This document shows, piece after piece, positions 5,399 through 23,319 of a DNA stretch of 60,904 nucleotides. The stretch spans positions 1 to 60,904 of the forward strand of contig JAZSOD010000093.1 in NCBI GenBank assembly GCA_045536775.1, in the 5' to 3' direction. Positions within the stretch are counted from its first letter, which is position 1, and every line of letters starts with the position of its first letter. The position numbers and the translations under genes were made by a program. A model generated the notes under the pieces. That model searched no databases. It was not told the origin of the DNA and saw only the letters and a list, made by a program, of their open reading frames with translations. Origin of the DNA: Eubacteriales bacterium. GTDB lineage: Bacteria; Bacillota; Clostridia; Oscillospirales; CAG-272.

Positions 5399-5413
5399 AT
5401 CACAAAAAATCTA

Positions 5414-8030: not shown

Positions 8031-8032
8031 GA

Positions 8033-9178: not shown

Positions 9179-9207
9179 TTGACAATGGGCGTACGGTCTG
9201 TTATAAT
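9179..9207 (+). promoter_or_regulatory. Consensus sigma-70-type promoter (TTGACA-17-TATAAT)
   Basis: Perfect -35 at 9179-9184 and -10 at 9202-9207, about 30 nt upstream of the EamA gene. Confidence 0.7.
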
Positions 9208-9237
9208 CATCTGGTATAAAGTTTTATGGAGGCAGGT

Positions 9238-10116: not shown

Positions 10117-10716
10117 TTATGACATTTTGAGAGCATCGGAGAACTCGTTAAGTCCGATGAGAACATTGTTCGGGTCAAGTCCCGAGGTGATTTCCCATAC
10201 GCCGCTCCTGTTCTCGGCAACCTCCACCACAAATACCGTGGAAGCGGTTTTGTTGTCGGCTCTTGACAAGAGCTCTGCAAGTATCTCTCCCGACTTCTTG
10301 TAAAGGAAAGTATTGAAGTCCTCAAGGCTCGTGTCCTCGGGAATGTTCGCAAGAGCCATTATGGTCTCGTCTGCCCACTCTGACATAAGAAGCGAGAAAT
10401 CTGTGTTCGATACTTTAACCTTTACCTTGCCTGTCCTGTTGTTACTGTTTGGATTGTCTATCGTTGACGATACTATTTCATAGTCAAGGTTTTTGTAGAG
10501 AAGAGTGAGGTCAAAGGAATTGAACATTGCAAACTCCTCGGAGTCCTCCTTGTACGAACTAAGAAGAAAATCCTTAAGCTCGTCTGCATCGGAGGTCTTT
10601 AGGTTTTCAAGTAAATCTGTAACGGCGCTTGCGGGTGCATCGTCCTTTTTGCCGCAGCCCGTAACGAGTGAGAGCACGGTGATGAGTGTAAGTATGAGTA
10701 CTAAAGTCTTTTTCAT
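10117..10716 (-). CDS. Hypothetical lipoprotein
   Basis: Signal peptide plus lipobox MKKTLVLILTLITVLSLVTGC; own consensus promoter upstream. Confidence 0.7.
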   Translation of the reverse strand: MKKTLVLILTLITVLSLVTGCGKKDDAPASAVTDLLENLKTSDADELKDFLLSSYKEDSEEFAMFNSFDLTLLYKNLDYEIVSSTIDNPNSNNRTGKVKVKVSNTDFSLLMSEWADETIMALANIPEDTSLEDFNTFLYKKSGEILAELLSRADNKTASTVFVVEVAENRSGVWEITSGLDPNNVLIGLNEFSDALKMS

Positions 10717-10798: not shown

Positions 10799-11134
10799 TC
10801 AGGCGGATGTTTTTGTCCCCTCGAAAGCATTATTAAACTCAGCGACCGCCGCCTCGATAAGCATCTTTATCTCAAGCTCTGTAATGGTAATACCCTTGAG
10901 CGCGAGCATTTCACTTGCCGACTCTACGACCTCATTGTACTTGTCCTCGCCGTGAAGGTCCTTGTAGAGCTGCTCGACCGCCTTTACACAGGTGGAGACA
11001 ACGTCCTTCTTCGTCTTGTCGTTTATGTACTTAGTATAAAGCGACTTGATCCACAGACCGATATAGCCTGCAAACGCAGTCAGAAGCGTGTAAATAATAG
11101 TAGTGCCGTATTCGTTTATAAACTCGATAAACAT
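10799..11134 (-). CDS. Phage holin, LL-H-like family
   Basis: Start at MFIEFINEYG (SD AAAAGGAGA); N-terminal TM then KAVEQLYKDLHGEDKY...MLIEAAVAE, a pattern I recognise from LL-H-type holins; the longer ORF-track start runs into a repeat. Confidence 0.75.
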   Translation of the reverse strand: MFIEFINEYGTTIIYTLLTAFAGYIGLWIKSLYTKYINDKTKKDVVSTCVKAVEQLYKDLHGEDKYNEVVESASEMLALKGITITELEIKMLIEAAVAEFNNAFEGTKTSA

Positions 11135-11164
11135 ATTTTTTCTCCTTTTATGAAATCGTTTTAA

Positions 11165-11385
11165 CAAGGCGCGCTTGGCGGTAGTGGGCCCCGAGCAGAG
11201 CGCCGCGGTCAGGGCACCCCGACAGGCAATACGCGCGTGAAGCAGAGTGATAATTATAATCTCAACCCATACCCTATAGTCTAATAACATTCAGTGAGTG
11301 GACTAATAACATCTACGTTGCGCAAAGACTAAGTCTTTGCGCTTCTTAAAGCTTTTTGCCGAGGCTTTTTCTCGAAAAAGCCGGA
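11165..11385. repeat. Intergenic repeat block: R1 copy + C palindrome + B hairpin
   Basis: 11170-11302 aligns with 30017-30149 (same orientation) and with 60553-60668 (inverted); palindrome gcgcaaagacNNNgtctttgcgc at 11320-11342; AT-core hairpin at 11364-11383. Confidence 0.9.
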
Positions 11386-11388
11386 AAA

Positions 11389-12075
11389 TCAATCTCTCAT
11401 AGCTTCGCCAAGCTTGCGCCACAGATCGTCTGCAAATTTGTATTCGTCAAGATAACTTACCGTGTGAGGAAGAAAGCCGCAGCGCCTGATAACGCCAGCA
11501 CGGTCGGTCTTGCCTTCACGTTTGCGTATTGCCACCGAGAGCTTGCGCCAGAGGTCTGCCGCCCACGCATACTTGTTCAGATATGCCCGCGTCCCCTGCG
11601 TAAAGCCGCAGATGTTACAAACGTCGTCGGAATAGTACTCCTTCTCGCTTATCTCGCAGATAGCGTTCGGGAGATTCAAGTACGCTGCCGCGTCGGACGA
11701 GTTCATATTTCTCGGACGCACCTCGAAATGTAAGTGCTTGCCCGTAGAGAAGCCCGTGCTTCCCATAATGCCAATAACGTCGCCCGCCTTGACGCGCTGA
11801 CCTGCCGACACCTTGCGCTCGGCAAGGTGACAGTAGTAGATAGTGTTGCCGTCAAGACCCGTCACAGCAACATAGTTGCCCCACTGCCAGGTCGGATTTG
11901 ATTTATCGGTCACCATCTGAGACCAAAGCACGTACCCGTCCGAAACGCTTACCACCTCGTCGGAGTGCTTGCCAACGAGATCAAGACCCGGATGAAATTC
12001 GGACTTACCGAACAGCACGCGGTAACCGTACCTTGACGTAATATGTATATTGCCACATTTAATTGGAAGTATCAC
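11389..12075 (-). CDS. M23 family peptidoglycan metalloendopeptidase (endolysin) with C-terminal tandem repeats
   Basis: M23 motifs HPGLDL and GKHLHFEV; C-terminal repeats ...YLNKYAWAADLWRKL / ...YLDEYKFADDLWRKL; sits in the lysis cassette. Confidence 0.85.
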   Translation of the reverse strand: MILPIKCGNIHITSRYGYRVLFGKSEFHPGLDLVGKHSDEVVSVSDGYVLWSQMVTDKSNPTWQWGNYVAVTGLDGNTIYYCHLAERKVSAGQRVKAGDVIGIMGSTGFSTGKHLHFEVRPRNMNSSDAAAYLNLPNAICEISEKEYYSDDVCNICGFTQGTRAYLNKYAWAADLWRKLSVAIRKREGKTDRAGVIRRCGFLPHTVSYLDEYKFADDLWRKLGEAMRD

Positions 12076-12311
12076 TTTTCTCTCTCCCTTCCGTCGTGAA
12101 ACGATTCGAGCACCGTAACGCGATGCTCAAGCCTGTCTAACTGCTCTCCGTGTGCCTTTATGCGCTCTTTACTTGCCTTCATATTATCATTTAACCCGTC
12201 TATTGAGCAGTTGAGCTTAGTAATGCTCGTGTTAAGCTTGATTATGGGTGTAGCAACTGTAATACCGAATCCAACAAGCGCAACAATGCCGAGGAAAATT
12301 TCCCATGTCAC
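12072..12311 (-). CDS. Small membrane protein with N-terminal TM and coiled coil (lysis-cassette associated)
   Basis: WEIFLGIVALVGFGITVATPII TM followed by a heptad-like region; 4-nt overlap with the endolysin start. Confidence 0.55.
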   Translation of the reverse strand: MTWEIFLGIVALVGFGITVATPIIKLNTSITKLNCSIDGLNDNMKASKERIKAHGEQLDRLEHRVTVLESFHDGREREK

Positions 12312-12323
12312 GCCCTCACCTCC

Positions 12324-12515
12324 TTAACTCAGCGTAACGCCGTATTTGGCGAGTATGGAGACCACCTTGTCGGTGACTATCTTCTTAAACTGACCGGGTG
12401 GGAGCTTTGCAAGCTCGGAAATAAGTATTTCCATATCGGTAGCCTTTTCGGCTTTTTCTTTTACCGCCTTGTTGAAAGCTATGACTCTGTTTCGGAGTTC
12501 ATTGTTCTTCATCAC
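12324..12515 (-). CDS. Hypothetical phage protein (63 aa)
   Basis: Co-oriented and overlaps its upstream neighbour by 4 nt; no recognisable motif. Confidence 0.5.
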   Translation of the reverse strand: MMKNNELRNRVIAFNKAVKEKAEKATDMEILISELAKLPPGQFKKIVTDKVVSILAKYGVTLS

Positions 12516-12841
12516 TCAGTCACTCCCTCTAAAATCATGTCAAGAGCTTCGCCGAGCTCGTCCACTTCGCCCTCAAGAGCCGTGATGCGCTCGTCTGCAG
12601 TAGGTGTCGGCTCAAGAATTTCGGGAGCTTTTGCCTCTACCCATTCACCGTGTATCTTACCGTCACGCTCAACGTATTTCTTTTCGTAATACTTGTCCGT
12701 GTCGGGATAGTCTGTTTCGACAATTTCAAGATACCCCTCGGCTTTGTACTGTTCGGGGCGAGGATTGTATAACTTGTAACCGCCCAATACCATCGGATTT
12801 GGAGCAATTACAAATTTTCCGTCAATAATTTTTCCGTACAT
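12512..12841 (-). CDS. Hypothetical phage protein (109 aa), tail-module position
   Basis: Co-oriented compact ORF with an acidic coiled-coil C-terminus. Confidence 0.55.
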   Translation of the reverse strand: MYGKIIDGKFVIAPNPMVLGGYKLYNPRPEQYKAEGYLEIVETDYPDTDKYYEKKYVERDGKIHGEWVEAKAPEILEPTPTADERITALEGEVDELGEALDMILEGVTE

Positions 12842-12854
12842 GATCTTTTCCTTT

Positions 12855-13409
12855 CTACGATATAAGTGTTATTGAAACGTTGTTATATTCTACAATGTTT
12901 GATCCATCTTCAGGGAGGTTTTGAAAACTGATAACTATCCACGCAGTGTTTTCTCCCGTTGTAAAAACTCGGGCCTTTAAGTCTTCGTTTATCTTGCCGC
13001 CGGTTATGAACCTTAACAGGTTACCGACCGTATCAAATTCGGTAATAAAAACGGTTGACTTGGTCTTTTCCATAAGTCCGTCAAAACCTACTGCATAAGA
13101 AGTATCAGGTGATGATTTCAAATCAAAGCCAACACCATAAGAGCATTGATTCTCTATAGTGGAAAATGAAAACCCGTTTTTATTTTTTTCAAAGCTTAAT
13201 ACATTATTTGGATTATACCAATTGGAATAAGCATAGCCAAGTATAATCCCCTTGCCTGTAAAGCTTCTCTTTGAGGTGTTTGACTGTGCCCCAAAGTTAA
13301 CAACCTCTCTGTTCCCGATGTTAAGTAGATTGGTATTAGCGTTTTTATCCTGAGCGAGTAATATGCTGAAAAACTGTTTGTTCACGCGCCCAGCTCCTTT
13401 GCTACCCAT
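12855..13409 (-). CDS. Hypothetical phage tail-associated protein (start uncertain)
   Basis: 184-aa ORF; an alternative GTG at 13385 would give a GTGA overlap with the upstream stop. Confidence 0.55.
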   Translation of the reverse strand: MGSKGAGRVNKQFFSILLAQDKNANTNLLNIGNREVVNFGAQSNTSKRSFTGKGIILGYAYSNWYNPNNVLSFEKNKNGFSFSTIENQCSYGVGFDLKSSPDTSYAVGFDGLMEKTKSTVFITEFDTVGNLLRFITGGKINEDLKARVFTTGENTAWIVISFQNLPEDGSNIVEYNNVSITLIS

Positions 13410-13738
13410 ACGCCAAGTATCTTATCGTTGAACGGAATAAATGACATGTAATACGTGTATCCGGCGTTAAAGCTGGGCTCGGCTACTGCCCATTCAACAC
13501 TTGCAGGGATGCTCACGCTTATATTTTCACCGGCGGTAAAGCAGACCGACCAGACCTCCGAGAGCTCGCTGTCACCTTTAGCAAACTCGGTAATAGCAAG
13601 ACTTGAAACCGGGGATGAAAATCTGTACTCGGTGTTGCTTGAAAGGGTTAATTCTGCTTCGGAGGAATCCGAGACAATAACCGCACAGGCAGAGTCTTTT
13701 ATTTTGCTTCTTAAAAGAGCATATAATTTCAAATCCAT
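13382..13738 (-). CDS. Hypothetical phage protein (118 aa)
   Basis: Start at MDLKLYALL with SD AAGAAAGGAA; the longer ORF-track start would overlap the upstream gene. Confidence 0.55.
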   Translation of the reverse strand: MDLKLYALLRSKIKDSACAVIVSDSSEAELTLSSNTEYRFSSPVSSLAITEFAKGDSELSEVWSVCFTAGENISVSIPASVEWAVAEPSFNAGYTYYMSFIPFNDKILGVWVAKELGA

Positions 13739-13766
13739 TTTGTTTCCTTTCTTCTGTATAAACAGA

Positions 13767-15614
13767 TCAGTTGTAGTTTTCGTGGGTAACGAACTCACGA
13801 GAAAGTGAAAGCAGGTCAAACTTACCCGAATGAGAAATTATTTTAACCTGCATATAATTTGCTCGCACGGGAACAAGAGGTATCTCGCTTACGCATACAC
13901 CGTCTTTGTTTCGTATACACCCTGCGAAAATATATGGCTTGCCGTCAAATGAAACGTAAACGTCTGTGACGGTCTGCGGCTCGGTGCAGGTACCTATAAT
14001 AAGCCTTGAAAACGTCTTTTTCTGGTGCGTGTTCTCATAAAACGGCGCAAATATTATCTGAGTGTTTCCCGGATAGTGAGCGGTATCCCACGAAACGCTT
14101 TCGTTTTCGGTCACTATTCTGAATATTGCAACGTCTGAATAGTACTTACCCAGGGCAAAAAGTGACGAGCCGCAGCGGGCGAAGGAATATATACCACCGT
14201 TTACAGCAGACCAAAGCTTCGTGCTCGTATCGTAAACATACGTGTTTTTGCTATCGGAAATATAGTATCTCGTTCCGTCGCTTCCGCCCACCGTGTTTCT
14301 ACATTCAAGACCGATATCGGAATTTATTCTGATGGGTGTCGTACCCTTGTAGCACATAATTCCGCAGTTTGATACGTAATAAAGCGAGTCTGCAACGAGA
14401 GCAATGCTGTCCGTATTTTCGGGTGACACGGATGCGGCAGGAGTGATACTTAGCTTATAACCGTCATATACCTTGAGCACCTTGATGATTGAGCTTTCGG
14501 TGAAAAACACGGGCACTCCTCCGAAATCGGCGCAGGCAATGATATTCTCTGCGATACCCGTGTCAATAGTAATCGTTCTATCGGAGAGCCCCTCTATCTT
14601 TGACCACACGCACGGATCGTTTTCGGCACAAGCATAAATGGTTTTTCCGTAAGCACCCCAAAGACGGTTACCCACCCTCGTTACACAGGTAAGCGTTGGA
14701 ATAAAGCGCTTTATCATCATAACTTCTGATTGCTGATAACCGTTAAGGGTTACGCCTGATGTATTTTTTACCGTAATATAGTTATTTCCGATACCGGTAA
14801 CAACAGTACCCTCGGATAATCCCTTTGCAACGTCTTCCGGCATAGAGGAATTTATCGCAACGCCTGTAACCGTAACTACATCTCCGATCTTGAGCCCTTT
14901 AAAGTTTTGGGCATAGGCATTGGAACCTTTAAGAAATATGAACCTTATGTTTTCATCATTGTCAATACATTCCATTTTATATTGTGCGCTTGAGGTTTCT
15001 TTCCAATAGTATTCGGTATCAAGGTCGCCAAACTCCTCGAATTTAAGACGGTATCTTTTGAAAATATCGGGATATTCCAATTTTACCCACTCGCCGTTCG
15101 TGTAAATGAACATGGCTGCAAATCCAATGTCATAATAGATATCGCCCTCGTTTGCGACTTTGGGCTCATCGTCTGAAACAGCAATAATATCTACCACATT
15201 CTCAAAATGCTCGTTGGTCTCGCATTCATACAGTTTGTTATTGTATGGCCTGTAGACAATTGTGCTTTTGCGGTAATACTTTTTGTCGGGAAAGATAGCG
15301 ACATAGTCGCCCAGAACACAATGCACCTTCTTGCCCTCGTCAAGCTTACCTTTGACGGTGTTGTCATACACGAAGCTTCCGTTTGCAGAATAGAAGAGCT
15401 TATTGTTGTATCCGATAGAGGCGTTCGGATCTCTGTCAAGCGTGCGTTCTATAAGGTAAGGACGCGCGCTTGAAATTACGGGATAGCTTTCCGTACTGAC
15501 ATTATAAGCTTCCGAAATATCCCCATCACATGCGGCGGGGGATGTATAGATGCCTTTGAAATCGCGCACCGTGTTAACGGTGCGCTTTTCTGTAAAATTA
15601 CTTTTTGCTTTCAT
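13767..15614 (-). CDS. Putative tail / receptor-binding protein (615 aa)
   Basis: Largest structural ORF distal to the head genes; recurring blade-like ...Y.YD....W.. / ...LYY.S..G segments suggest a beta-propeller-like fold; start at MKAKSNF overlaps the upstream 43-aa ORF. Confidence 0.5.
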   Translation of the reverse strand: MKAKSNFTEKRTVNTVRDFKGIYTSPAACDGDISEAYNVSTESYPVISSARPYLIERTLDRDPNASIGYNNKLFYSANGSFVYDNTVKGKLDEGKKVHCVLGDYVAIFPDKKYYRKSTIVYRPYNNKLYECETNEHFENVVDIIAVSDDEPKVANEGDIYYDIGFAAMFIYTNGEWVKLEYPDIFKRYRLKFEEFGDLDTEYYWKETSSAQYKMECIDNDENIRFIFLKGSNAYAQNFKGLKIGDVVTVTGVAINSSMPEDVAKGLSEGTVVTGIGNNYITVKNTSGVTLNGYQQSEVMMIKRFIPTLTCVTRVGNRLWGAYGKTIYACAENDPCVWSKIEGLSDRTITIDTGIAENIIACADFGGVPVFFTESSIIKVLKVYDGYKLSITPAASVSPENTDSIALVADSLYYVSNCGIMCYKGTTPIRINSDIGLECRNTVGGSDGTRYYISDSKNTYVYDTSTKLWSAVNGGIYSFARCGSSLFALGKYYSDVAIFRIVTENESVSWDTAHYPGNTQIIFAPFYENTHQKKTFSRLIIGTCTEPQTVTDVYVSFDGKPYIFAGCIRNKDGVCVSEIPLVPVRANYMQVKIISHSGKFDLLSLSREFVTHENYN

Positions 15615-15729
15615 TGTACTTAGCCTCCTCGAGAGCCTCGAGCCTGAGGTCAAGCGCTTCAAGCTTGATTTTTATTTCAGTGTAAATCGAGTCGAGATCA
15701 ACGGACTTGCCGTTATTTTTCTTTACCAT
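15598..15729 (-). CDS. Unlisted 43-aa coiled-coil ORF
   Basis: My translation: MVKKNNGKSVDLDSIYTEIKIKLEALDLRLEALEEAKYNESKK; SD GGAGC upstream; overlaps both neighbours; below the ORF-track size cut-off. Confidence 0.45.
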   Translation of the reverse strand: MVKKNNGKSVDLDSIYTEIKIKLEALDLRLEALEEAKYNESKK

Positions 15730-16115
15730 ATTCGGAAGCTCCTTTCATCAGACTTTTCGGGCTTTGTGATGGGTGAGTAGTCGGGCTTTGTCCCGGTGTC
15801 ATCCTCGGGCATATTATCTGATTCGGTATTCTTTCGTACGAGCTCGGAGTAAGCGCTTTCAAATGCTGCTCTTGAGTTTTCGTATCTTCCGTATTCTCCG
15901 TTCAAGAGGTCTATAACCGAAAAAAGAAACAGCTCGTACACTGCAAAATTATTCTCATCAAGCGCAAGCTTGTTTTCATTATACACAGGCTTGGTATCGC
16001 CGAGAATATCCGTTCGTATCCTCATATCCAGCGATTTGAGATAATCGCCTAAGTAACTGCCGTAAGGATTCGGGCGGAGAGTGCTTACCTTGTCAAGAAT
16101 ATAAGAAGCTGTCAT
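15723..16115 (-). CDS. Hypothetical phage protein (130 aa), head-tail connector position
   Basis: Co-oriented; TAATG overlap with the upstream ORF at 16113-16117. Confidence 0.5.
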   Translation of the reverse strand: MTASYILDKVSTLRPNPYGSYLGDYLKSLDMRIRTDILGDTKPVYNENKLALDENNFAVYELFLFSVIDLLNGEYGRYENSRAAFESAYSELVRKNTESDNMPEDDTGTKPDYSPITKPEKSDERSFRIW

Positions 16116-16300
16116 TAGATGCGGGACCAGCCTTCGGGGAATTTAACAAAAACCGAGGTTTTTGAAATGGCATCAGAGCCTGTGGGGGCATCCGTCGGCA
16201 GTAAAGATGCCTCGCTGTCCGAATCAAGAATATAGTGGCGGATAGAACCCGTTGCACCCTTTGAATTTTTTGTTTTTTCAAAGCTCGTTTCGATAATCAT
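16115..16300 (-). CDS. Hypothetical phage protein (61 aa)
   Basis: Its stop overlaps the next start by 1 nt; preferred over the alternative frame 16093-16281. Confidence 0.4.
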   Translation of the reverse strand: MIIETSFEKTKNSKGATGSIRHYILDSDSEASLLPTDAPTGSDAISKTSVFVKFPEGWSRI

Positions 16301-16327
16301 ATAACCTTTCCTTTCTCGCCAAGAGAA

Positions 16328-16702
16328 TCAGCAATAGCGCTCCATTTTGCCGTCACGCGAGAGAAAGCCTGCGTTTACCTTAGCGACGTTGTCTTCAGAC
16401 TGAGCGATGACTTCGGCAAAGCGGCGCTTGATTTTAACGGGAACACCGCGCTTGACTCTGCACATATATCCGTTGATGCCGACTAAAACGTCGTCCTTGT
16501 ACTTGTCGCCGTCCTTGAAAAGACGGATCTCAACGTATTCGCTTTCACGCTTGGTGATATCCTTGATTCTCGGTGCAGCCGTTTTCTTTTCGGAAACGCC
16601 GTCAAGCCTTGCGAGCTTTTCCTCGTATTCCTTTGCAAGTGCTTCAAGTCTTTTTGTAAGTGATTCCTTCTTGGTGGGGTTTTTAGATGTTGTTTGATTC
16701 AT
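16328..16702 (-). CDS. Hypothetical phage protein (124 aa) downstream of the capsid gene
   Basis: Co-oriented ORF with SD GGAGGA; basic and acidic N-terminus. Confidence 0.5.
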   Translation of the reverse strand: MNQTTSKNPTKKESLTKRLEALAKEYEEKLARLDGVSEKKTAAPRIKDITKRESEYVEIRLFKDGDKYKDDVLVGINGYMCRVKRGVPVKIKRRFAEVIAQSEDNVAKVNAGFLSRDGKMERYC

Positions 16703-16789
16703 ATTTATCCTCCGTTTAGCCGCATTAGCGGCAGAAATGTTGTTTGTGATTATGATTTATCTGCCGCCAAAGACGGCTTAACTGAGAAA

Positions 16790-16814
16790 GATAAGGTGGG
16801 GAGTCCACCTTATC
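16790..16814 (-). terminator. Hairpin just after the capsid gene (possible partial terminator)
   Basis: 10-bp stem gataaggtgg/ccaccttatc with only a short T run on the transcribed strand. Confidence 0.4.
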
Positions 16815-16835
16815 CTATTGCGGCTTCGGTCAGAC

Positions 16836-18155
16836 TCAGTTTGCGCCCGACTCGAACGTGGAGGCGGTTTCGATTCTTATCATAGCCTCCTGAGCGAGAA
16901 CGCTTGCAGAAATCGCAGCCTTCCAACCAACCGTAGCTCTCTGGTTGATGGGGTCGCCGGTGCCGGCGCTGCCGAGCTGCTTAACGATGTGCTCGAGGCC
17001 GCCGCCGAGAATATCGATAACGCCGTAAGCGTTAGCGCCGATAACGAGAGTGCAGTAAACGTCGCGGCCGAGTCTGCCTGCGTTTGCAGCATAAGCGCGG
17101 TCGCCTGCGGTGTACGCAGCAGATGCGGGAGCTTCCTCAAGGAAGAGCTTGCCTTCGGCATTGTTCACACCGCATACCTTGACAGTTTCAACTGTAGACG
17201 CGGACTCGTCAAAGAGCTGAAGCTTTTTGCCGATAAGCTTTTCGGCATCGATGTCCGAAAGCGTGTTTGAAATGCTGAGAGCATACTTGCTGCCGTTACC
17301 TGCAGTAGCAGTACCCTCGGCAGACGCGGCAGAGTAGCCTGTTATGTCCAGATACTTTGCGCCCGTAGCTTCAACGAGAATATCGGCGGAAATAACCTTA
17401 GCCTCGCTGGATTCAACGAAGCGTACACCGCCGATCTTACCGATCTCACCGTTGTAAAGGTCAGCGGGATCGCAATAGGTCTTGGGCTTTTCCCATTCGG
17501 GATCGTTCATAAGGTCGTATGCAACGTCGGGGTGGATAATGGCAACGTATGAGCCGTTTATCTTTTCAACGTTCTTTGCCTTGAGTGCGCGAGCAGCGCG
17601 TCTTATACAGTCAACGGTGAGGTAGTGGTTGCCCGTTGCCTCGCCGCCAACAAGATCAAGACGGGAGTCAACAGAGCCCTCGCCGTACTGCACGTTTGTA
17701 CCTGCGGATACGAGAACGTCTCTGATAACAGAGTCGATGGTTCTGCCCGCCTGAGAGCCGAGAAGCTTTGTCGCCTCAAGTACGTTGTTGTCGAGCGCGG
17801 TCATAAGGAGCATATCGGAAAGCTCGATATATGCACCGTACTGGTAAACGGTAGCGCGTATAGCGGACATTTCCATAGACGTTCCTGCGGGGGTGATACC
17901 CTCGGTAAGAGGCGAGGAAGCCTTGGGAAGAGCAGAGTAGCGTCTGAATTCGACTGTCTTTCCGCCGTTCTTCGGGATGGAACGCTTCTGACCGAACTGC
18001 GCGTGAATGAGTGCAGGCTCAGCGTTGTCTATAAGGTAATCGCTGTAATACACTCTGAGATCGTTTGTGAGAGCTCCGTCGTTTTCACCCGTGATGTTTT
18101 CGGTTGTAACTACGACAGGCTCGGAAAAAATAGTAAGAATGCTTGTGTTTTTCAT
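16836..18155 (-). CDS. Major capsid protein (HK97 fold; resembles the N4-gp56-type family from memory)
   Basis: Position after the scaffold gene; QFGQKRSIPKNGGKTVEFRRY...LTEGITPAG block; start at the second ATG (GGAG SD, 6-nt spacing; alternative start 18167). Confidence 0.8.
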   Translation of the reverse strand: MKNTSILTIFSEPVVVTTENITGENDGALTNDLRVYYSDYLIDNAEPALIHAQFGQKRSIPKNGGKTVEFRRYSALPKASSPLTEGITPAGTSMEMSAIRATVYQYGAYIELSDMLLMTALDNNVLEATKLLGSQAGRTIDSVIRDVLVSAGTNVQYGEGSVDSRLDLVGGEATGNHYLTVDCIRRAARALKAKNVEKINGSYVAIIHPDVAYDLMNDPEWEKPKTYCDPADLYNGEIGKIGGVRFVESSEAKVISADILVEATGAKYLDITGYSAASAEGTATAGNGSKYALSISNTLSDIDAEKLIGKKLQLFDESASTVETVKVCGVNNAEGKLFLEEAPASAAYTAGDRAYAANAGRLGRDVYCTLVIGANAYGVIDILGGGLEHIVKQLGSAGTGDPINQRATVGWKAAISASVLAQEAMIRIETASTFESGAN

Positions 18156-18203
18156 AATAATCTCCATTCCGCCGCAAAAGCGGCAAATGTCAGCGTACGG
18201 GCG

Positions 18204-18887
18204 TCAAGAGAAGATAATGTCCTCGCCTGCCATGACCCTGCGCGCGATCTGCTCACGCTCGGATCTTGTCAGCCGCGACACGTCGCGGCGTACACAGAGG
18301 CCCGCGGCAGACGAGGACGCGGATTCGCGCGTCCTCGCGCCACGCGCACGGATATTATCGAGAGCCGCTTTTACGGCATCTCTCTTCGCCGACTCCATAA
18401 GCTCGTCAAAGTGTGCGGCATTGAACGCCGCGCTTACCGAGACTCCGCTTTCGTATATCTGTTTGAAGGTCTCATTCTCAAGCTCACTTTCGAGTGTGAA
18501 ATCGGGGTGTGCGGCGAGGAACTCCTCGCTCGGTGCCATAACGCTGACTGTTTTCTTTTCAAGCTCTTCACGCAGAGACTTGATAGTAAGGTCGGCTCGC
18601 TCAAGCTCGGCCTTCATCTGACCTGCCTCCTTGATACGCAGACTGATAATTTTCTGAGTGTCTTCAGTAAAAAAGTCCTTGTTTGCCCTGATGAACTCGT
18701 CGTATATCTCTCTGCGTGTCCTTGAGGACTCGTCACGCTCCCCGGCGGCGGGAGATGTATCGCCCGTGACACCCGACTCGCGTGAGAGAGGAGTGTCTTC
18801 GGTTGTTGTCTGCGCGGCGACCGCAGACGTCTCTTTAACGCCCGAGGGTGTTTGCTCACTAAAGAGCAGAAGTGAAAAATTTTTCAT
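18204..18887 (-). CDS. Capsid scaffolding protein
   Basis: Lies between protease and capsid genes; acidic, helix-rich, low-complexity N-terminal third. Confidence 0.7.
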   Translation of the reverse strand: MKNFSLLLFSEQTPSGVKETSAVAAQTTTEDTPLSRESGVTGDTSPAAGERDESSRTRREIYDEFIRANKDFFTEDTQKIISLRIKEAGQMKAELERADLTIKSLREELEKKTVSVMAPSEEFLAAHPDFTLESELENETFKQIYESGVSVSAAFNAAHFDELMESAKRDAVKAALDNIRARGARTRESASSSAAGLCVRRDVSRLTRSEREQIARRVMAGEDIIFS

Positions 18888-18940
18888 AGGAATTCCTCTA
18901 TCTCAAAGGCAAAAGCCCCTGATACAATGTTTATTTACGC

Positions 18941-19246
18941 TTATCGCGTATTGATGTTTACCGAGAGTCGCACGTGTGCAGGATACTCTGCGGCAATAAG
19001 ACCGAGTGCCTTTTCGGCAAATCGGAAGGTATATTCTGCCCTTCGGCTGTGGCGTGTGCGTATAACGGCTTTGCCGCTTGAAATGTGGGTTTCGCTGTGT
19101 TTGTCGTCAAGCGAGGCACAAAGCCCCATTATTATGCTTGATACACCGGCGCAGACAATGTCCGAGCCGTACGGCGCATATCCTGCGTGACCGAGAGCCG
19201 AAAGGGTGAGAAGATTTTTGTGCTTTTCAATTTTAATATCTATCAT
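18941..19246 (-). CDS. Prp-like (DUF464) cysteine protease
   Basis: Signature GHAGYAPYGSDIVCAGVS with a His...Cys dyad; about 100 aa as for ribosomal-processing protease Prp. Confidence 0.85.
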   Translation of the reverse strand: MIDIKIEKHKNLLTLSALGHAGYAPYGSDIVCAGVSSIIMGLCASLDDKHSETHISSGKAVIRTRHSRRAEYTFRFAEKALGLIAAEYPAHVRLSVNINTR

Positions 19247-19250
19247 AAGA

Positions 19251-20981
19251 TTAACCCTTGTTCTTTGTCTTGAGCTTTATTGCAGAGCGTATTCCTTCAG
19301 CAAGCTTTTTGTCGGTATTCGGCGTTTTTGCATCGGGTACGGGCTGTTCTTCCCGCTTTTCGCTTTTTAACTCGCGTACCATTTCAATAATGCGGCCCTT
19401 TCCTTCAAGCTCAAGTGCATCGAGAACAATAAGAGCTTCGTTTTTCTTTTCGGGAGAGAACAAACCCATTTTGAAAAGCTCGCTCACGGTTTCATTCTGC
19501 GCATAGCGAGAAAACGCCGAGCTTTTGAGCGTACGTACTTCAACGTCGAATTCGGGGAGTCTGTATAAAAGTTCGTCACCGAGAGAGGTGGATTTTTCTT
19601 TTATATCCTTGCCCGAAAACTCTATGTATTCGTAACCCGTACGATTTGGCTTTGTGATTCTGAAGCAACGCTCCTCGTCATAGAACTGGCGAATAAGCTC
19701 GATAATAAGCTTGATGACCGACGAGAACGCGTCGAACGACGACGTGATAATGTCGCGCATGACCTTGCTTCCCGCCTCCTGAAGCGCCGCGATGGCAACT
19801 CCCGAGCTGATACTCTGGCTCGCGTACCCGTAGTTGTAGTTGTGGGTTGCCGAGATCTCCTTGATCTCGTTTATCTTGGAGTCGCGCACGGTTATCACGT
19901 TTTGATCGAGTGCGGGGAGTGTGATAGCCTTTACTCTTTCTTCTGTAAGGTCGCCGTCAACCTCAACCACGGGCTTGCTCCAGTCAAGAAAATCGCCGAG
20001 ATTCATTCCCACGTTTTTCTTCATCATATATCTTGGCTTTGCCGACATGACCGCGTGCTCGAGAATGCTTCTGTCGAGTCTGTCAATATACTCCTGCGTG
20101 CCTCTCGTGACCGAGATAAGACCGTAACCGCAGGGGGTGCCGTTTTCGCGATAAAGAGTGTCGAGGACGAACGGGTAAAGACCGTGACCATAGAAGCCGC
20201 TGACTGCCGACGGATCATTCTCGGACGCATACAGAACAGTTTCTCCAACAAATTTAACGTAGTGGAGTATGACTCCGTGAGGTGTCTGCTTTTTGTAATA
20301 CCAATCGACCACAAGACTTTTGTCGCTTGTGTCTATTGACGGATCAAAAACGTAGTCTGCGGCACAGGTAGAGACCGACGAGCCCGATTCCCTCGCCCAA
20401 GGGTAGAGAGAGTATAGAGTTTCGTTGTCTATAAGCGAGGTGTAAAAAACGTTCTGCGAATCCTGAATTGAGCAAACACCGGGCTCCCAGAAAAGATTTA
20501 ATAAGTCGATGCGTTTGACGTCTATGTCACCGAGACCGTTCTGCGAGTCGGGATTCCAGAAAACGCCGTAGACGGCGGTGCCGTGCTTGAGCTTGTCATA
20601 CTGAAGCTCGGAATATAGTCTGTTAAAGGACAGACGGTCGAGAATAACGGGAAGCACGGAATTTAATACCTCCGCGTATTCGACGTCGCTCTTTTCACGA
20701 GCAATACAAACGGGAGAGGGAATGCTTTCCATAATGTCTGCGTGCTTGTTTACAACAGTGGAGAATAACCATCCCGACGCGGGATAGGGCATATCCGAGC
20801 CCTTTGATACACCTGACGGACGGTGCCTTGAACACCAGAAATCCTCGTCTGAGAGAATTCTTTTTTCAAGTGAATATCTTGCTTTTCTGTAGCCTTCAAG
20901 TATGGCGGCGCCGCGCCTTACGGTATCGACGCCAACCGTGTCCAAAGACGGATTTTTGCTTTTCATTTTGCTTCCTTTCAT
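19251..20981 (-). CDS. Phage portal protein
   Basis: 576 aa immediately downstream of the large terminase; an alternative start at 20966 has the better SD. Confidence 0.8.
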   Translation of the reverse strand: MKGSKMKSKNPSLDTVGVDTVRRGAAILEGYRKARYSLEKRILSDEDFWCSRHRPSGVSKGSDMPYPASGWLFSTVVNKHADIMESIPSPVCIAREKSDVEYAEVLNSVLPVILDRLSFNRLYSELQYDKLKHGTAVYGVFWNPDSQNGLGDIDVKRIDLLNLFWEPGVCSIQDSQNVFYTSLIDNETLYSLYPWARESGSSVSTCAADYVFDPSIDTSDKSLVVDWYYKKQTPHGVILHYVKFVGETVLYASENDPSAVSGFYGHGLYPFVLDTLYRENGTPCGYGLISVTRGTQEYIDRLDRSILEHAVMSAKPRYMMKKNVGMNLGDFLDWSKPVVEVDGDLTEERVKAITLPALDQNVITVRDSKINEIKEISATHNYNYGYASQSISSGVAIAALQEAGSKVMRDIITSSFDAFSSVIKLIIELIRQFYDEERCFRITKPNRTGYEYIEFSGKDIKEKSTSLGDELLYRLPEFDVEVRTLKSSAFSRYAQNETVSELFKMGLFSPEKKNEALIVLDALELEGKGRIIEMVRELKSEKREEQPVPDAKTPNTDKKLAEGIRSAIKLKTKNKG

Positions 20982-20984
20982 AAA

Positions 20985-22391
20985 TCAGAGAATAGTATTA
21001 TAGTTATACCTGCCGCCGAAAGAACTTCCAAGCGGCGACAGTAATGGGGATGAGGACTCCTTTTTGATGGGACGGATTGGCTGAGTCATACACATATATC
21101 TTGTTTCGTCTGCAATGTGGTCCTCAAGCTCCGTGTTGATGTCCTCGGGCGAGACTGATGAATACTGAAGATAGGGTATAGTTCTGATGAAGTCGCGGCA
21201 ATTTTTGAAAATATACATCATAGGGATACCGTTTTTGTCAAACGAGAGCCTGTAATGTACCTGCATCCAGCCGGCGATACGCTTGTTGTCACCCTTTTCA
21301 AAAAACACACCGTAGCGTTCGCCCACCTCAGCGATGGATATACCTCTCGACGCATCCCAGATGGACGGGTCTGCTACCCCGTAAATATGCTTACCCCGAA
21401 GCCAGATATGCTCTCTTTCGATACGTGTTATCTCCGCGAATATCTCGTCGGGAGTCCACTTGACTCCCACGTTAGGCTCACGCGGAACACATCCGTAAAG
21501 CTCGAGTATGCGGTATAGCCTGCCGTCATAGTCGCAAGCCCACCACGCGCACGAAAACGGCTTTGCGTATCCGAAGTCAAAGCTTCTGTGGATGGTCCAC
21601 GATTCGGGAATATCAAACGGCTCGATAACGTGAGTAAATCGCCTGTCGAGATAATGCTCGGGATCGTCCTTGAACTCCTCGAATACCTGACCCTCGCATA
21701 CGTTCCAATCACCTTCAAGATGTGCTCTGCGCTTTGCCGGAGGAAGAGCCTCAAGTAAGCGTATGTAGTCGGGATTTGCCTCCATAAGAGGCTTGTTGTC
21801 GTATATCCTTGCGGGTATGAACAGATAATCATCGGGATCTTCACCGTCCTCGAAGTCGCGGTCGATAAAGAGCCGCTTTATGTAGCTGTGGCCCACACCG
21901 CCGGGATTGCAGGTGTAGTATATACGGGTCTTGAAATCAAGCCTCGTGTTTCTTAGCGAGGTCGATATAAAGCGGATCCATTCCTCGCGGAAGTTTGTCG
22001 CTTCTTCAAACCCTATAACGTCGTATTCGGCGCCCTGATACTGCATAAGGTCGCCCTCGTTGTCGCAGTAGCCGAGCTCAAGACGAGAGCCGTTCGGAAA
22101 AATGAACGCGCGTTCGTCCTTCTTGTAGACGGCGTAACCGTTAAGCTCGTAAACGAGAGGCTGTATGTGGTTTTTGCGAAGCTCTGCAAGAGTACGTCTG
22201 AGCAATAGCACCGAAAGCCTCTCGTAACGCATACAAAGCATAACGAGCTTGCGGCGCATTGCGTAGCTTTTACCGCCGCCTCGCGCACCGCCGTAAGCGG
22301 TGTGCTTTGCCGTGGACGAATAGAACAAGCGTTGCTTGGGATTTGGCACCTCACGGGCGAGCTTTTCAAAGATGGGTGCTAACTGCTCCAT
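20985..22391 (-). CDS. Phage terminase large subunit
   Basis: Walker A YGGARGGGKSYA, ATPase and C-terminal nuclease-type layout, 468 aa. Confidence 0.9.
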   Translation of the reverse strand: MEQLAPIFEKLAREVPNPKQRLFYSSTAKHTAYGGARGGGKSYAMRRKLVMLCMRYERLSVLLLRRTLAELRKNHIQPLVYELNGYAVYKKDERAFIFPNGSRLELGYCDNEGDLMQYQGAEYDVIGFEEATNFREEWIRFISTSLRNTRLDFKTRIYYTCNPGGVGHSYIKRLFIDRDFEDGEDPDDYLFIPARIYDNKPLMEANPDYIRLLEALPPAKRRAHLEGDWNVCEGQVFEEFKDDPEHYLDRRFTHVIEPFDIPESWTIHRSFDFGYAKPFSCAWWACDYDGRLYRILELYGCVPREPNVGVKWTPDEIFAEITRIEREHIWLRGKHIYGVADPSIWDASRGISIAEVGERYGVFFEKGDNKRIAGWMQVHYRLSFDKNGIPMMYIFKNCRDFIRTIPYLQYSSVSPEDINTELEDHIADETRYMCMTQPIRPIKKESSSPLLSPLGSSFGGRYNYNTIL

Positions 22392-22636
22392 TTGTCAAGA
22401 TCTCCTTCAAATGAAAGATGAAGCACTCGCTCACCCTCGGGCTCGTTGTGAGAGCTTTGGGGCTTACCGTAATACATTTCGCAAAGCCACTTGTAAGCAT
22501 CTATTCTCGCTTTGGTATCGGTTGACTCGCTCTCGGCAATTTCAATTATTCGCTCAAGCGCCGACACCGCGCTTGACTTCAGCTTTTCGCGCTCTTTTTC
22601 ACCGGGCGAGGTCCCCTTGCCGTCACGCTTTTTCAT
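22379..22636 (-). CDS. Putative terminase small subunit (85 aa)
   Basis: Lies immediately 5' of TerL with a 13-nt overlap; KARIDAYKWLCEMYYGKP resembles the C-terminal small-terminase motif; start at MKKRDGKG with an SD. Confidence 0.5.
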   Translation of the reverse strand: MKKRDGKGTSPGEKEREKLKSSAVSALERIIEIAESESTDTKARIDAYKWLCEMYYGKPQSSHNEPEGERVLHLSFEGDLDKWSS

Positions 22637-22952
22637 TTTCCTTTTCCTCAAGCGTGATCTTGTAAAAATCCCCGTCAGACACACATCCGACCCTGTATTT
22701 GCCAACGAGGTCGGAAATCTCGCCCTTGCCTATACGAGTCACCATGGCATCGCCCTCAAAAGAGCTTTCCCTTTTGAGATAATAAAGGATAAAAGCGGCG
22801 CAAAGAGAATTTATTTCCCTGAGTCCCCGTATTTCCTCCTTGTATGCCTCAATCTCCCCGAGCTTGTTTTCAAGCAGGTATTCAAGGCGTCTTGTTTCAT
22901 ATAATTGCTTCTGCCGTGATCTCATCCTGTATTCCCGACTCCTTTCTGTCAT
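22623..22952 (-). CDS. Hypothetical phage protein (start uncertain: 22952 or 22925)
   Basis: Coiled-coil N-terminus (LEYLLENKLGEIEAYKEEIRGLRE); co-oriented. Confidence 0.45.
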   Translation of the reverse strand: MTERSREYRMRSRQKQLYETRRLEYLLENKLGEIEAYKEEIRGLREINSLCAAFILYYLKRESSFEGDAMVTRIGKGEISDLVGKYRVGCVSDGDFYKITLEEKENEKA

Positions 22953-23136
22953 AATATGCGTTTGTTTCCTTGCAAATGGGGCAGGTGGAATAATCCATGC
23001 TTGCGCAAAAGCTTTCAAGGAAACGGCGTCTCATAGTCTTGTCCTTGAACTCAAGCCTGCAGGATTCGCAATAGGTATAGCCGTTCCTCTCTCTCTTGAA
23101 AAACGGGCACTGTGCAATAAGCGGCAAAGTGAACAC
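22897..23136 (-). CDS. Cys-rich zinc-ribbon protein, first gene of the phage-like operon
   Basis: CPFF...CESC ... CPIC cysteine pairs; GTG at 23136 or TTG at 23127 after AAAGGAG. Confidence 0.5.
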   Translation of the reverse strand: MFTLPLIAQCPFFKRERNGYTYCESCRLEFKDKTMRRRFLESFCASMDYSTCPICKETNAYYDRKESGIQDEITAEAII

Positions 23137-23186
23137 TCCTTTCCTCTCTTAAAACAAAAGTGAAATTAAATTTCGTCTGCTTGGCT

Positions 23187-23216
23187 ATCATAACACTTGC
23201 AAGAGTCATTTGTCAA
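23187..23216 (-). promoter_or_regulatory. Near-consensus sigma-70-type promoter for the phage-like operon (TTGACA-18-TATGAT)
   Basis: Reverse complement of 23211-23216 is TTGACA and of 23187-23192 is TATGAT. Confidence 0.55.
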
Positions 23217-23319
23217 CCCCATTTTGAAAGAAAATGCAAAATTGGTACAAAATCAACAAATATGAAACAAAAGTTCACTTTTTGCAACAAAAACCATTGG
23301 AGAAAATGACGGAAGCTTG

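What the first reader, a model, noticed from the sequence alone, without database searches (positions are those of the whole stretch)
10799..23216. Self-contained 12.4-kb podovirus-like capsid/lysis cluster with no integration, lysogeny or replication genes (GTA-like or domesticated-particle candidate)
About 20 co-oriented minus-strand ORFs are packed with 1-28 nt start/stop overlaps. In order they are: a Cys-rich zinc-ribbon ORF, a small ORF, a TerS-like ORF, TerL (Walker A GGARGGGKS), portal, a Prp protease, scaffold, major capsid, four small ORFs, a 615-aa tail/receptor-binding candidate, four more small ORFs, a TM/coiled-coil protein, an M23 endolysin and an LL-H-type holin. The absences matter as much. 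There is no tyrosine or serine recombinase, no repressor/Cro/antirepressor, no replication initiator, primase, helicase or polymerase, and no tape measure or sheath. I see no flanking tRNA or convincing att repeats. Both flanking genes (lipoprotein at 10117-10716, FAD oxidoreductase at 23379) have their own consensus promoters and look chromosomal. A structural-plus-lysis-only cluster of this size is the architecture of gene transfer agents and other domesticated phage particles. I do not know of a described one with this short-tailed, N4-type-capsid layout in Clostridia. Alternatives are a recently decayed prophage, a satellite, or a minimal phage that borrows host recombination and replication.
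Basis: partly seen in the sequence, partly recalled or inferred. Interest (0 to 1): 0.75.

Follow-up and report, generated by a model that had tools for sequence, protein, structure and literature searches.

The report
Domesticated short-tailed phage particle locus
A 12.4-kb block of phage head, short-tail and lysis genes without integration or replication genes has been inherited with the chromosome and kept intact by selection in a group of uncultured gut Clostridia, so it is most likely a gene-transfer-agent-like particle of the kind recently shown in Faecalibacterium, not a dying prophage.

Summary
Window 10799-23216 (minus strand) is one tight operon of about 21 ORFs, running from three small ORFs through TerL, portal, Prp, scaffold and an N4-gp56 capsid to a 615-aa protein, a TM protein, an M23 hydrolase and an LL-H holin. 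I show that the 615-aa protein is a podovirus tail nozzle. I found no integrase, replication gene, tRNA or att repeat, and the flanks are core chromosome.

- Five genomes carry the cluster at the same site, collinear through both junctions.
- Synonymous divergence of head and lysis genes (0.26-0.97) matches the flanking host genes (0.25-0.88).
- dN/dS is 0.03-0.27 and I found no disrupted gene.
- At least 12 compact copies form one clade, sister to phage-like relatives that do carry replication genes.
- Free relatives in IMG/VR sit on contigs clustering near 42 kb.

The layout is no longer undescribed. FpGTA of Faecalibacterium prausnitzii (Nat Commun 2026) has the same gene set and packages about 9 kb of host DNA. 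A 2026 preprint lists a 12.7-kb single-locus candidate.

Verdict: a new member of that emerging kind, here as a single operon. Gene transfer itself is untested.

The parts
23150..23290 (-). Regulatory region. It holds an extended sigma-70-type promoter (-35 TTGACA at 23216-23211, TG-extended -10 TATGAT at 23192-23187). Two similar palindromes flank it: GTGAAC-N5-TTTCAT at 23262-23278 and GTGAAA-N5-TTTCGT at 23160-23176.
   Evidence: Promoter scan. Pattern search found 6 matches against 1.5 expected, three of them here. The five-genome alignment is nearly invariant for about 75 bp upstream of the -35, although synonymous sites in the same genomes differ by dS of about 0.6-1. Function is inferred.
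22897..23127 (-). 76-aa Cys-rich small protein, first gene of the operon. Possibly a regulator; function unknown.
   Evidence: TTG/ATG start with an AAAGGAG ribosome-binding site, conserved in five genomes. Conserved across the clade and in the sister phages. Only sub-threshold zinc-ribbon matches.
22623..22952 (-). Roughly 100-109-aa coiled-coil small protein. The start is uncertain (M at 22952 or 22925).
   Evidence: Conserved at 39-76% identity in the compact copies, with dN/dS 0.21. No family match.
22379..22636 (-). 85-aa protein in the small-terminase position. Too short to carry a typical DNA-binding domain.
   Evidence: It overlaps the TerL start. Relatives encode 84-87 aa here. No TerS family match, so the assignment rests on position only.
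20985..22391 (-). Large terminase (468 aa).
   Evidence: PF04466/PF03237 and phrog_979 at 3e-44. It is the most conserved element protein: 96.6% identity and dN/dS 0.03 against L012.
19251..20981 (-). P22/SU10-type portal (576 aa).
   Evidence: PF16510 at 1e-24 and phrog_156 at 5.7e-69.
18941..19246 (-). Prp-family cysteine protease (101 aa), the presumed maturation protease.
   Evidence: PF04327 at 1.3e-16. The capsid and scaffold proteins carry matching N-terminal leaders.
18204..18887 (-). Scaffolding protein (227 aa) with the N-terminal leader MKNFSLLLF|SE.
   Evidence: phrog_13908 at 1.3e-27. Its position and leader are conserved. It is 218-244 aa in compact copies against 263-344 aa in phage relatives.
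16836..18167 (-). [quoted passage not shown]
   Evidence: TIGR04387 at 264.7 bits and phrog_1357 at 1.8e-81. dN/dS is 0.06.
15598..16702 (-). Four small conserved ORFs (124, 61, 130 and about 43 aa) between capsid and nozzle. They are presumed head-completion or adaptor proteins.
   Evidence: The same positions are occupied in Bacillus phage Page (gp7-9) and in all relatives. Matches to phrog_15239 and phrog_12105, both of unknown function. The roles are inferred.
13767..15614 (-). Podovirus tail nozzle (615 aa).
   Evidence: AlphaFold2 model with pLDDT 89.7 and pTM 0.85. The top 27 Foldseek hits are all podovirus tail or nozzle structures, including LME-1, PhiM1, P22 gp10 (8eap_D) and T7 gp12, at E 6e-15 to 5e-9.
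12324..13741 (-). Variable distal-tail or receptor-binding cassette: ORFs of 119, 184, 109 and 63 aa.
   Evidence: The 184-aa and 63-aa ORFs have no counterpart in L012, L006 or L092 and are replaced by other ORFs of 237-401 aa. The neighbouring ORFs are 47-69% identical with dS 1.2-2.2. No family matches. The role is inferred from position and variability.
12072..12311 (-). 79-aa protein with an N-terminal transmembrane segment and a coiled coil. Possibly a lysis accessory.
   Evidence: Weak matches to phrog_1009 (4.5e-6) and holin phrog_1296 (2.9e-4). Conserved at 60-85% identity across the clade.
11389..12075 (-). M23 peptidoglycan endopeptidase (228 aa) with two C-terminal repeats. Presumed endolysin.
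   Evidence: PF01551 at 7.5e-23. dN/dS is 0.04.
10799..11134 (-). LL-H-type holin (111 aa).
   Evidence: PF09682 at 5e-18 and phrog_608. It is the last gene of the block in all complete copies.

Best explanation
The locus is a domesticated remnant of a podophage of the lineage with an N4-gp56 capsid, P22-type portal and Prp protease. Only the packaging, head, short-tail and lysis genes survive. It is fixed in the chromosome and inherited vertically, so it is a gene-transfer-agent-type element (viriform) of the same kind as FpGTA of Faecalibacterium.

Proposed mechanism:
1. In a subpopulation the single operon is switched on from its conserved promoter/operator region.
2. Prp trims the N-terminal leaders of scaffold and capsid protein as procapsids assemble on the portal.
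3. TerL, with the short TerS-position protein, fills heads with DNA. By analogy with FpGTA this is host DNA packaged by headful.
4. Adaptor proteins, the nozzle and the variable distal proteins complete a short tail.
5. Holin plus M23 hydrolase lyse the producer.
6. The particles adsorb to related cells through the fast-evolving distal cassette.

Shown here: gene content and anatomy, the missing mobility and replication genes, the fixed chromosomal position, co-divergence with the host, purifying selection, and a single origin of the compact form.

Inferred: expression control, capsid size, what DNA is packaged, and whether DNA is delivered.
For: - Gene content and nozzle fold.
- No integrase, replication gene, tRNA or att repeat.
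- Same site in five genomes (window, L012, L006, L092, L224), with nucleotide collinearity through both junctions. The alignment to L012 is one block of 13.9 kb at 85%.
- Element dS is 0.26-0.97 against flank dS 0.25-0.88. dN/dS is 0.03-0.27 with no real stops. The same holds in a second group (L008 v L014: element 0.35-0.69 v pyrophosphatase 0.73). Copies stay intact where synonymous sites are saturated.
- Twelve compact copies are monophyletic in the capsid tree, and the eleven of them with a TerL or portal sequence are monophyletic in those trees. Their sister is a pair of phage-like copies (L018 carries weak Rep-like and VRR-NUC matches).
- Flanks are shared in a mosaic. ThrRS/pyrophosphatase lies on one side and lipoprotein/DUF1385 on the other, with L009 bridging the two.
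- Free relatives are at most 62% identical, on contigs clustering near 42 kb (range 36-44 kb among the longer ones). Some carry giant 2,380-2,819-aa proteins that the compact form lacks.
- Prp-type leaders are conserved on capsid and scaffold proteins.
- The promoter and operator region is conserved beyond the synonymous rate.
- FpGTA has TerS-like, TerL, portal, Prp, N4-gp56 capsid and a nozzle matched to the same PDB entry (8eap). It makes about 40-nm particles holding about 9 kb of host DNA: PMC12946183.
Against: - No particle, packaging or transfer data exist for this lineage.
- I could not compare the sequence with FpGTA. No Faecalibacterium appeared among the 80 best relatives in the species-representative genomes, so the relationship may be distant or reflect an independent domestication.
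- The compact copies sit in four different chromosomal contexts.
- Element and flank distances are not fully congruent. L224 is the outlier for flanks but not for portal, scaffold or nozzle. Some lateral exchange or movement has therefore occurred.
- A related full-length phage-like copy co-occurs in two of the genomes (L018 and L019), which leaves room for a helper relationship.
- Capsid capacity relative to 12.4 kb is unknown.
Confidence: 0.6

Rival explanations
1. It is a helper-dependent mobile element (phage satellite). It supplies its own head, nozzle and lysis genes but relies on a related resident phage, or on in-situ packaging, for induction, replication and spread.
For: - Related phage-like copies (L018, L019) occur in the same MAGs as two compact copies. 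L018 has a weak Rep-like match and a VRR-NUC domain.
- TerL is 82% identical between the two types.
- The compact copies lie in four chromosomal contexts.
- L224 shows partial incongruence between element and flanks.
- The 2026 preprint notes that its 12.7-kb candidate resembles capsid-forming satellites.
Against: - No integrase, excisionase, primase/Rep or att repeats.
- Nucleotide collinearity runs through both junctions in the three genomes aligned at nucleotide level.
- Element dS equals flank dS.
- Capsid-forming PICIs lack tail and lysis genes, whereas this element has a nozzle, a holin and an endolysin.
- No compact-clade member was found in IMG/VR.
Confidence: 0.15
2. It is a domesticated particle whose selected function is not gene transfer. 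It might be a killing particle or a programmed-lysis device like PBSX, with DNA packaging only a structural requirement.
For: - The lysis cassette is retained under strong constraint (M23 dN/dS 0.04).
- The receptor-side cassette is hypervariable, as in tailocins.
- The FpGTA authors leave this option open for their element.
Against: - TerL is the most conserved protein of the element (dN/dS 0.03). The portal and the TerS-position gene are also retained, which argues that filled heads matter.
- A podovirus nozzle has no contractile killing machinery.
Confidence: 0.15
3. It is a decaying prophage remnant with no function, left after deletion of the early region.
For: It has only late genes, no mobility genes, and phage relatives that carry early genes.
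Against: - The same truncated architecture is intact in at least 12 genomes that have diverged to synonymous saturation.
- dN/dS is 0.03-0.27 for every ORF, including the small ones.
- The regulatory region is conserved.
- The compact form has a single origin.
Confidence: 0.06
4. It is an autonomous minimal temperate phage of about 12 kb that uses host replication and recombination.
For: It carries a complete head, tail and lysis set. Fecal virome scaffolds of 11-12 kb carry related capsid genes.
Against: - Those scaffolds are unverified fragments ordered by length. They carry only parts of the module, or other genes as well.
- IMG/VR relatives sit on contigs clustering near 42 kb and are at most 62% identical.
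- No att repeats or integrase, and the junctions are collinear.
Confidence: 0.04

Closest known systems
FpGTA of Faecalibacterium prausnitzii (Borodovich et al., Nat Commun 2026, PMC12946183)
   Same: - Podovirus-type set in the same order: TerS-like, TerL, portal, Prp, N4-gp56-family capsid protein.
- A nozzle that matches P22 gp10 (PDB 8eap).
- A holin and an endolysin, and no integrase or replication genes.
- Host in the same order of gut Clostridia.
   Different: - FpGTA is split into a 10.5-kb operon and a 5.5-kb operon about 125 kb apart. Here everything is one 12.4-kb operon.
- FpGTA fibre and RBP proteins (BppU-like, sialidase-like, SGNH) have no detected counterparts here.
- Sequence-level relatedness was not tested. 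No Faecalibacterium was among the 80 best capsid relatives.
- FpGTA has particle, proteomic and packaging data. This locus has none.
12.7-kb candidate cluster in Butyricicoccaceae QXXE01 (bioRxiv 10.64898/2026.07.08.737213)
   Same: - A single locus of almost the same size.
- Described as transcriptional activator, small and large terminase, capsid proteins, holin and endolysin.
- Its host DNA is abundant in virus-like particles, with no coverage peak at the locus.
   Different: I know it only from the text and could not compare sequences. The authors leave open whether it is a GTA or a satellite.
RcGTA-type alphaproteobacterial GTAs
   Same: - A chromosomal head-tail cluster without replication or integration genes.
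- Vertical inheritance and purifying selection.
- A TerS without a recognisable DNA-binding domain.
- Release by lysis.
   Different: - RcGTA is siphovirus-like, with a tape measure and an HK97-type protease.
- Its genes lie at several loci and are controlled by CtrA/GafA.
- It shares no gene homology here beyond the generic folds.
Gut podophages with contigs near 42 kb, and Bacillus phage Page (Pagevirus)
   Same: The order of the structural module is the same: TerS, TerL, portal, scaffold, capsid, three small genes, nozzle, small genes. Capsid identity is 39-62%.
   Different: These phages have early and replication genes, tail spikes and, in several, giant 2,380-2,819-aa proteins. Their scaffolds are longer, at 263-344 aa.
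Capsid-forming PICIs (Alqurainy et al. 2023)
   Same: They are about 10-15 kb and have their own TerS/TerL, portal and capsid genes.
   Different: cf-PICIs have an integrase, regulators and a replication module, and they lack tail and lysis genes. This locus shows the opposite pattern.
PBSX of Bacillus subtilis
   Same: It is a defective, chromosomally fixed phage-derived particle in a Gram-positive host. It packages host DNA and is released by lysis.
   Different: PBSX is about 28 kb with a myovirus contractile tail and an Xre repressor, and it acts as a killing particle.

Membership tests
Gene transfer agent / viriform (general definition) | Phage-derived head, tail and packaging genes encoded in the host chromosome. 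| tested here: met
Gene transfer agent / viriform (general definition) | No genes for its own replication, integration or excision, and not an excisable unit. | tested here: met
   No such domains. No att repeats or tRNA. Junctions are collinear in relatives. Several small ORFs remain unassigned.
Gene transfer agent / viriform (general definition) | Vertical inheritance with the host and purifying selection. | tested here: met
   Same site in five genomes. Element dS is about equal to flank dS, and dN/dS is 0.03-0.27. The compact copies are monophyletic. L224 shows partial incongruence.
Gene transfer agent / viriform (general definition) | Particles carry host DNA rather than preferentially their own genes. 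| not testable with these tools
   Needs sequencing of DNase-protected particle DNA.
Gene transfer agent / viriform (general definition) | Head capacity is smaller than the encoding gene set. | tested here: inconclusive
   The only hint is a shorter scaffold: 218-244 aa against 263-344 aa in phage relatives. The T number cannot be read from sequence.
Gene transfer agent / viriform (general definition) | Expression is under host regulation. | tested here: inconclusive
   A conserved promoter and two operator-like palindromes. The regulator is unknown.
FpGTA-type podovirus-like GTA | Gene set: TerS-like, TerL, portal, Prp, N4-gp56 capsid, P22-gp10-like nozzle. | tested here: met
   compared with the FpGTA protein list.
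FpGTA-type podovirus-like GTA | Sequence orthology to the FpGTA proteins (RCH50844-50852, RCH48794-48800). | not tested
   The sequences were not obtainable with these tools. No Faecalibacterium locus appeared among the 80 best relatives.
FpGTA-type podovirus-like GTA | Two separate operons: head and nozzle in one, fibre, RBP and lysis in the other. | tested here: not met
   All functions are contiguous at 10799-23216. This is an organisational feature, not a functional one.
FpGTA-type podovirus-like GTA | Particles of about 40 nm carrying 8.4-8.9 kb of host DNA. | not testable with these tools
   Needs an experiment.
Capsid-forming PICI / phage satellite | Integrase with att sites, plus a regulatory and replication module. 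| tested here: not met
Capsid-forming PICI / phage satellite | No tail or lysis genes of its own. | tested here: not met
   A nozzle, and a holin and M23 hydrolase, are present.
Complete temperate or lytic podophage of the related lineage | Early and replication genes, and a genome on the scale of the free relatives (contigs near 42 kb). | tested here: not met
   The element is 12.4 kb with late genes only. Relatives that have these features.

The most novel reading that the evidence does not exclude
This clade may be a second podovirus-type GTA lineage, arising separately from FpGTA and complete in one operon. It would have come once from a podophage of the roughly 42-kb kind, by loss of the early region and the giant virion protein and by shortening of the scaffold. 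It would then have been inherited vertically across a family-level group of uncultured gut Oscillospiraceae-like bacteria. At about 20 genes and 12.4 kb behind one promoter, it would be the most compact complete GTA 'genome' known. It would also suggest that this phage family has been domesticated repeatedly in gut Clostridia.
Probability: 0.35. Interest if true: 0.65.

Novelty: new member of a known kind. Interest (0 to 1): 0.45.

Why it matters
Podovirus-like GTAs were reported only in 2024-2026, from one genus, and they appear to move large amounts of host DNA in the gut. This work shows a second host group, from ruminant and other animal gut MAGs, with a related particle locus that is self-contained and under clear selection.

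- It extends the phenomenon beyond Faecalibacterium.
- It gives evolutionary evidence for domestication (co-divergence, dN/dS, single origin) that the experimental papers did not provide.
- It offers a single-operon version suited to heterologous reconstitution.
- It gives practical markers for finding more such loci and telling them from prophages and satellites: the Prp, N4-gp56 capsid and nozzle genes, the short scaffold, the missing giant protein and missing integrase, and the variable distal cassette.

Tried and rejected
- Megablast of the whole element against GenBank phages gave no match.
- The 11-12-kb fecal virome scaffolds with related capsids looked at first like free 12-kb genomes. 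They are unverified fragments numbered by length, and they carry only parts of the module or other genes as well.
- Exact-sequence look-ups of two window proteins (the capsid protein and the ABC-transporter permease) found nothing on record.
- A scan of JGI metagenomes with the flanking FAD oxidoreductase, meant to find empty sites, returned only homologues of 58% identity or less over their full length. None had synteny, so it was uninformative.
- A more distant FAD-oxidoreductase orthologue (67%) has no element beside it. Its neighbours differ too, so it is not a clean empty site.
- I tried to reach FpGTA sequences through cluster membership of NCBI-sourced capsid homologues. No Faecalibacterium accession turned up.
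- Sequence search of the nozzle and the capsid protein against PDB chains gave no match. Only the fold comparison worked.
- Codon usage of the element is host-like (RSCU r = 0.90). So is that of the sister phage (0.875), so the measure does not discriminate.
- Correlating element distances with flank distances over five genomes was inconclusive. The flanks themselves are mosaic.
- A crude measure of co-oriented block length, meant to classify all 80 loci, was too noisy to use.
- Rfam found no known RNA in the window.

Full report
**What is there**

Window 10799-23216 holds about 21 co-oriented minus-strand ORFs with short overlaps.
- LL-H holin: PF09682, 5e-18.
- M23 peptidase: PF01551, 7.5e-23.
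- Prp protease: PF04327, 1.3e-16.
- P22/SU10-type portal: PF16510, 1e-24; phrog_156, 5.7e-69.
- Large terminase: PF04466/PF03237; phrog_979, 3e-44.
- Major capsid protein: phrog_1357, 1.8e-81. It passes NCBI's N4-gp56 model TIGR04387 at 264.7 bits against a cut-off of 60.
- The 85-aa ORF in the TerS position has no family support, so that call is positional.

I modelled the 615-aa protein with AlphaFold2 (pLDDT 89.7, pTM 0.85). Its 27 best PDB matches are all podovirus tail or nozzle structures, including LME-1, PhiM1, P22 gp10 in 8eap and T7 gp12, at E 6e-15 to 5e-9. It is therefore the tail hub, not a receptor binder.

The capsid and scaffold proteins both begin with a short leader ending in LF|S: MKNTSILTIF|SE and MKNFSLLLF|SE. 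The sister phages have MLQLFA|A at the same place. From my own knowledge of the L27/Prp system and of staphylococcal phage 80alpha, this is the kind of motif Prp cleaves. It fits a working maturation protease.

**What is absent**

The window has no tRNA and no Rfam family. No direct repeats bracket the block, and no element ORF has an integrase, repressor or replication domain. The neighbours, as far as I scanned them (window 1995-10101 and 23379-46187), are ordinary chromosomal genes: topoisomerase subunit A, CCA-adding enzyme, SpoIID, DUF1385 and EamA on one side, and FAD oxidoreductase, an amino-acid ABC transporter, HflX, Nth, CinA, GalK, RpoD and DnaG on the other.

**Relatives**

The capsid protein has thousands of homologues. 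Those at 73-95% identity all lie in the same compact arrangement, from small ORFs and TerL through to M23 and holin, 12-13 kb long, in chromosomal contigs of uncultured Eubacteriales, Oscillospiraceae and Clostridia MAGs. Where the record names a source, it is a ruminant or other animal gut.

Five genomes (window, L012, L006, L092, L224) have it between the same FAD oxidoreductase and the same downstream genes. For the three I aligned at nucleotide level (L012, L006, L092), collinearity runs straight through the junctions. The window aligns to L012 in one block of 13.9 kb at 85% identity, crossing from the ABC transporter into the element.

Other copies lie next to a pyrophosphatase gene (L007, L008/L017, L014, L015, L016), or between an AMP-binding gene and a solute-binding gene (L231, L013). 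In L009 the element has ThrRS on one side and a lipoprotein plus DUF1385 on the other. L009 thus shares one flank with each of two other groups. None of the flanks with domain annotation contains a recombinase.

**Selection and inheritance**

Between the window and L012, synonymous divergence of head, packaging and lysis genes is 0.26-0.97. For the seven flanking host genes it is 0.25-0.88. dN/dS is 0.03-0.27 for every element ORF.

The single stop in one alignment falls upstream of the likely true start of the 100-aa ORF, so I do not count it as a disruption.

A second pair behaves the same way: L008 against L014 gives element dS 0.35-0.69 and pyrophosphatase dS 0.73. Copies remain intact in pairs whose synonymous sites are saturated.

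In neighbour-joining trees the compact copies form one clade: twelve in the capsid tree, and the eleven with a TerL or portal sequence in those trees. Their sister is a pair of phage-like loci (L018, L019). L018 carries a weak Rep-like match and a VRR-NUC nuclease.

A slightly more distant relative (66% capsid identity) is a clear phage. It has HTH and RHH regulators, a 325-aa scaffold, a 709-aa nozzle and a 2,380-2,415-aa virion protein. In IMG/VR the nearest capsids are at most 62% identical and sit on contigs clustering near 42 kb.

The simplest reading is a single loss of the early region, followed by long vertical descent under selection. Simple decay does not fit. Two details complicate a purely vertical picture.
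- The distal tail region is a replaceable cassette. The 184-aa and 63-aa ORFs have no counterpart in the closest genomes, and the nozzle and its neighbours have dS of 1.2-4.5.
- L224 is the outlier for flanking genes but not for portal, scaffold or nozzle.

**Regulation**

The operon starts at a TG-extended sigma-70-type promoter (23216-23187). About 75 bp upstream of the -35, and the leader, are nearly invariant in five genomes whose synonymous sites have diverged by 0.6-1. Two similar palindromes, GTGAAC-N5-TTTCAT (23262-23278) and GTGAAA-N5-TTTCGT (23160-23176), flank the promoter. I take these as binding sites for an unidentified regulator. This is inference.

**Comparison with what is known**

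Borodovich et al. (PMC12946183; preprint 2024) describe FpGTA of Faecalibacterium prausnitzii as the first podovirus-like GTA.
- It has a 10.5-kb operon with TerS-like, TerL, portal, Prp, an N4-gp56-family capsid protein and a nozzle matched to PDB 8eap.
- A separate 5.5-kb operon carries fibre, RBP, holin and endolysin.
- It makes particles of about 40 nm that hold about 9 kb of host DNA.

A 2026 preprint (10.64898/2026.07.08.737213) mentions a 12.7-kb single-locus cluster in Butyricicoccaceae with an activator, terminases, capsid genes, a holin and an endolysin. Its authors left it unresolved between GTA and satellite.

The window's element matches FpGTA in gene set and order and in lacking mobility genes. 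It differs in being one operon. I could not obtain FpGTA sequences, so orthology is untested. No Faecalibacterium locus was among the 80 best capsid relatives in the species-representative genomes, which suggests the relationship is not close.

It does not fit a capsid-forming PICI, since it has no integrase or replication module but does have tail and lysis genes. It does not fit a complete phage either.

**Verdict**

My confidence splits as follows.
- About 0.8 that this is a selected, chromosomally fixed, phage-derived particle locus.
- About 0.6 that it works as a GTA-type particle in the way described.
- About 0.15 each for a helper-dependent element or a non-transfer (killing or lysis) role.
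- 0.1 or less for decay or an autonomous mini-phage.

Novelty: a new member of a recently established kind, in single-operon form and in a new host group. Interest is moderate.

Noticed in passing
window 10117-10716 (minus strand): A lipoprotein gene (signal peptide plus Cys, weak DUF4878 match) with a perfect consensus promoter follows the holin in the window, L012, L006 and L092. A distant homologue (26% identity, E 1e-4) follows the holin in L009. It evolves faster than the host genes around it: 82% identity against 92-99.5% versus L012, with dN/dS 0.14. It may be an accessory of the element, for example surface masking or exclusion, rather than a host gene.
   Followed up: partly
window 11135-11388: An unusual 254-nt non-coding gap separates the M23 hydrolase from the holin in an otherwise tightly packed operon. 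It holds two hairpins (GGCTTTTT-cgag-AAAAAGCC and GCGCAAAGAC-tta-GTCTTTGCGC) and a GC-rich leader. A gap of about 290-315 nt is also present in L012 and L092, but the sequence does not align with L012. It might time the holin separately.
   Followed up: partly
L018 (JAZNNG010000066.1) and L019 (JAZNJH010000028.1): The MAGs that hold compact copies L012 and L017 each carry a second, phage-like copy of the same head module (capsid 75% and 71%, TerL 82% and 76% to the window). L018 has a weak Rep-like match and a VRR-NUC domain upstream of TerL; I did not scan L019. It could be a helper, a competitor, or a source of recombining alleles.
   Followed up: partly
L009 about 5020-5760 and 11204-11970: In this compact copy the same two-gene cassette appears twice inside the element: once upstream of TerL and once between the capsid gene and the next ORF. 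Each copy is one minus-strand ORF of 117/160 aa plus one plus-strand ORF of 130/93 aa. It may be a small inserted mobile or toxin-antitoxin-like unit.
   Followed up: no
window 39595-41253 (+) and 41346-43004 (-): Two convergent ORFs of exactly 552 aa each have no Pfam match at E <= 1e-5 and no similarity to each other (BLASTP E 0.25).
   Followed up: partly
window 11389-11640 (C-terminal part of the M23 protein): The endolysin ends in two copies of a roughly 35-aa repeat (Y-L-N/D-K/E-Y-x-x-A-x-D-L-W-R-K-L). Relatives show a weak DUF8155 match over this part. It is probably a cell-wall-binding module.
   Followed up: no
L010/L011 and L229/L230: Phage relatives of the module encode single proteins of 2,380-2,819 aa just downstream of the nozzle region; the L010/L011 protein has a MuF_C match. 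The compact elements have nothing comparable.
   Followed up: no
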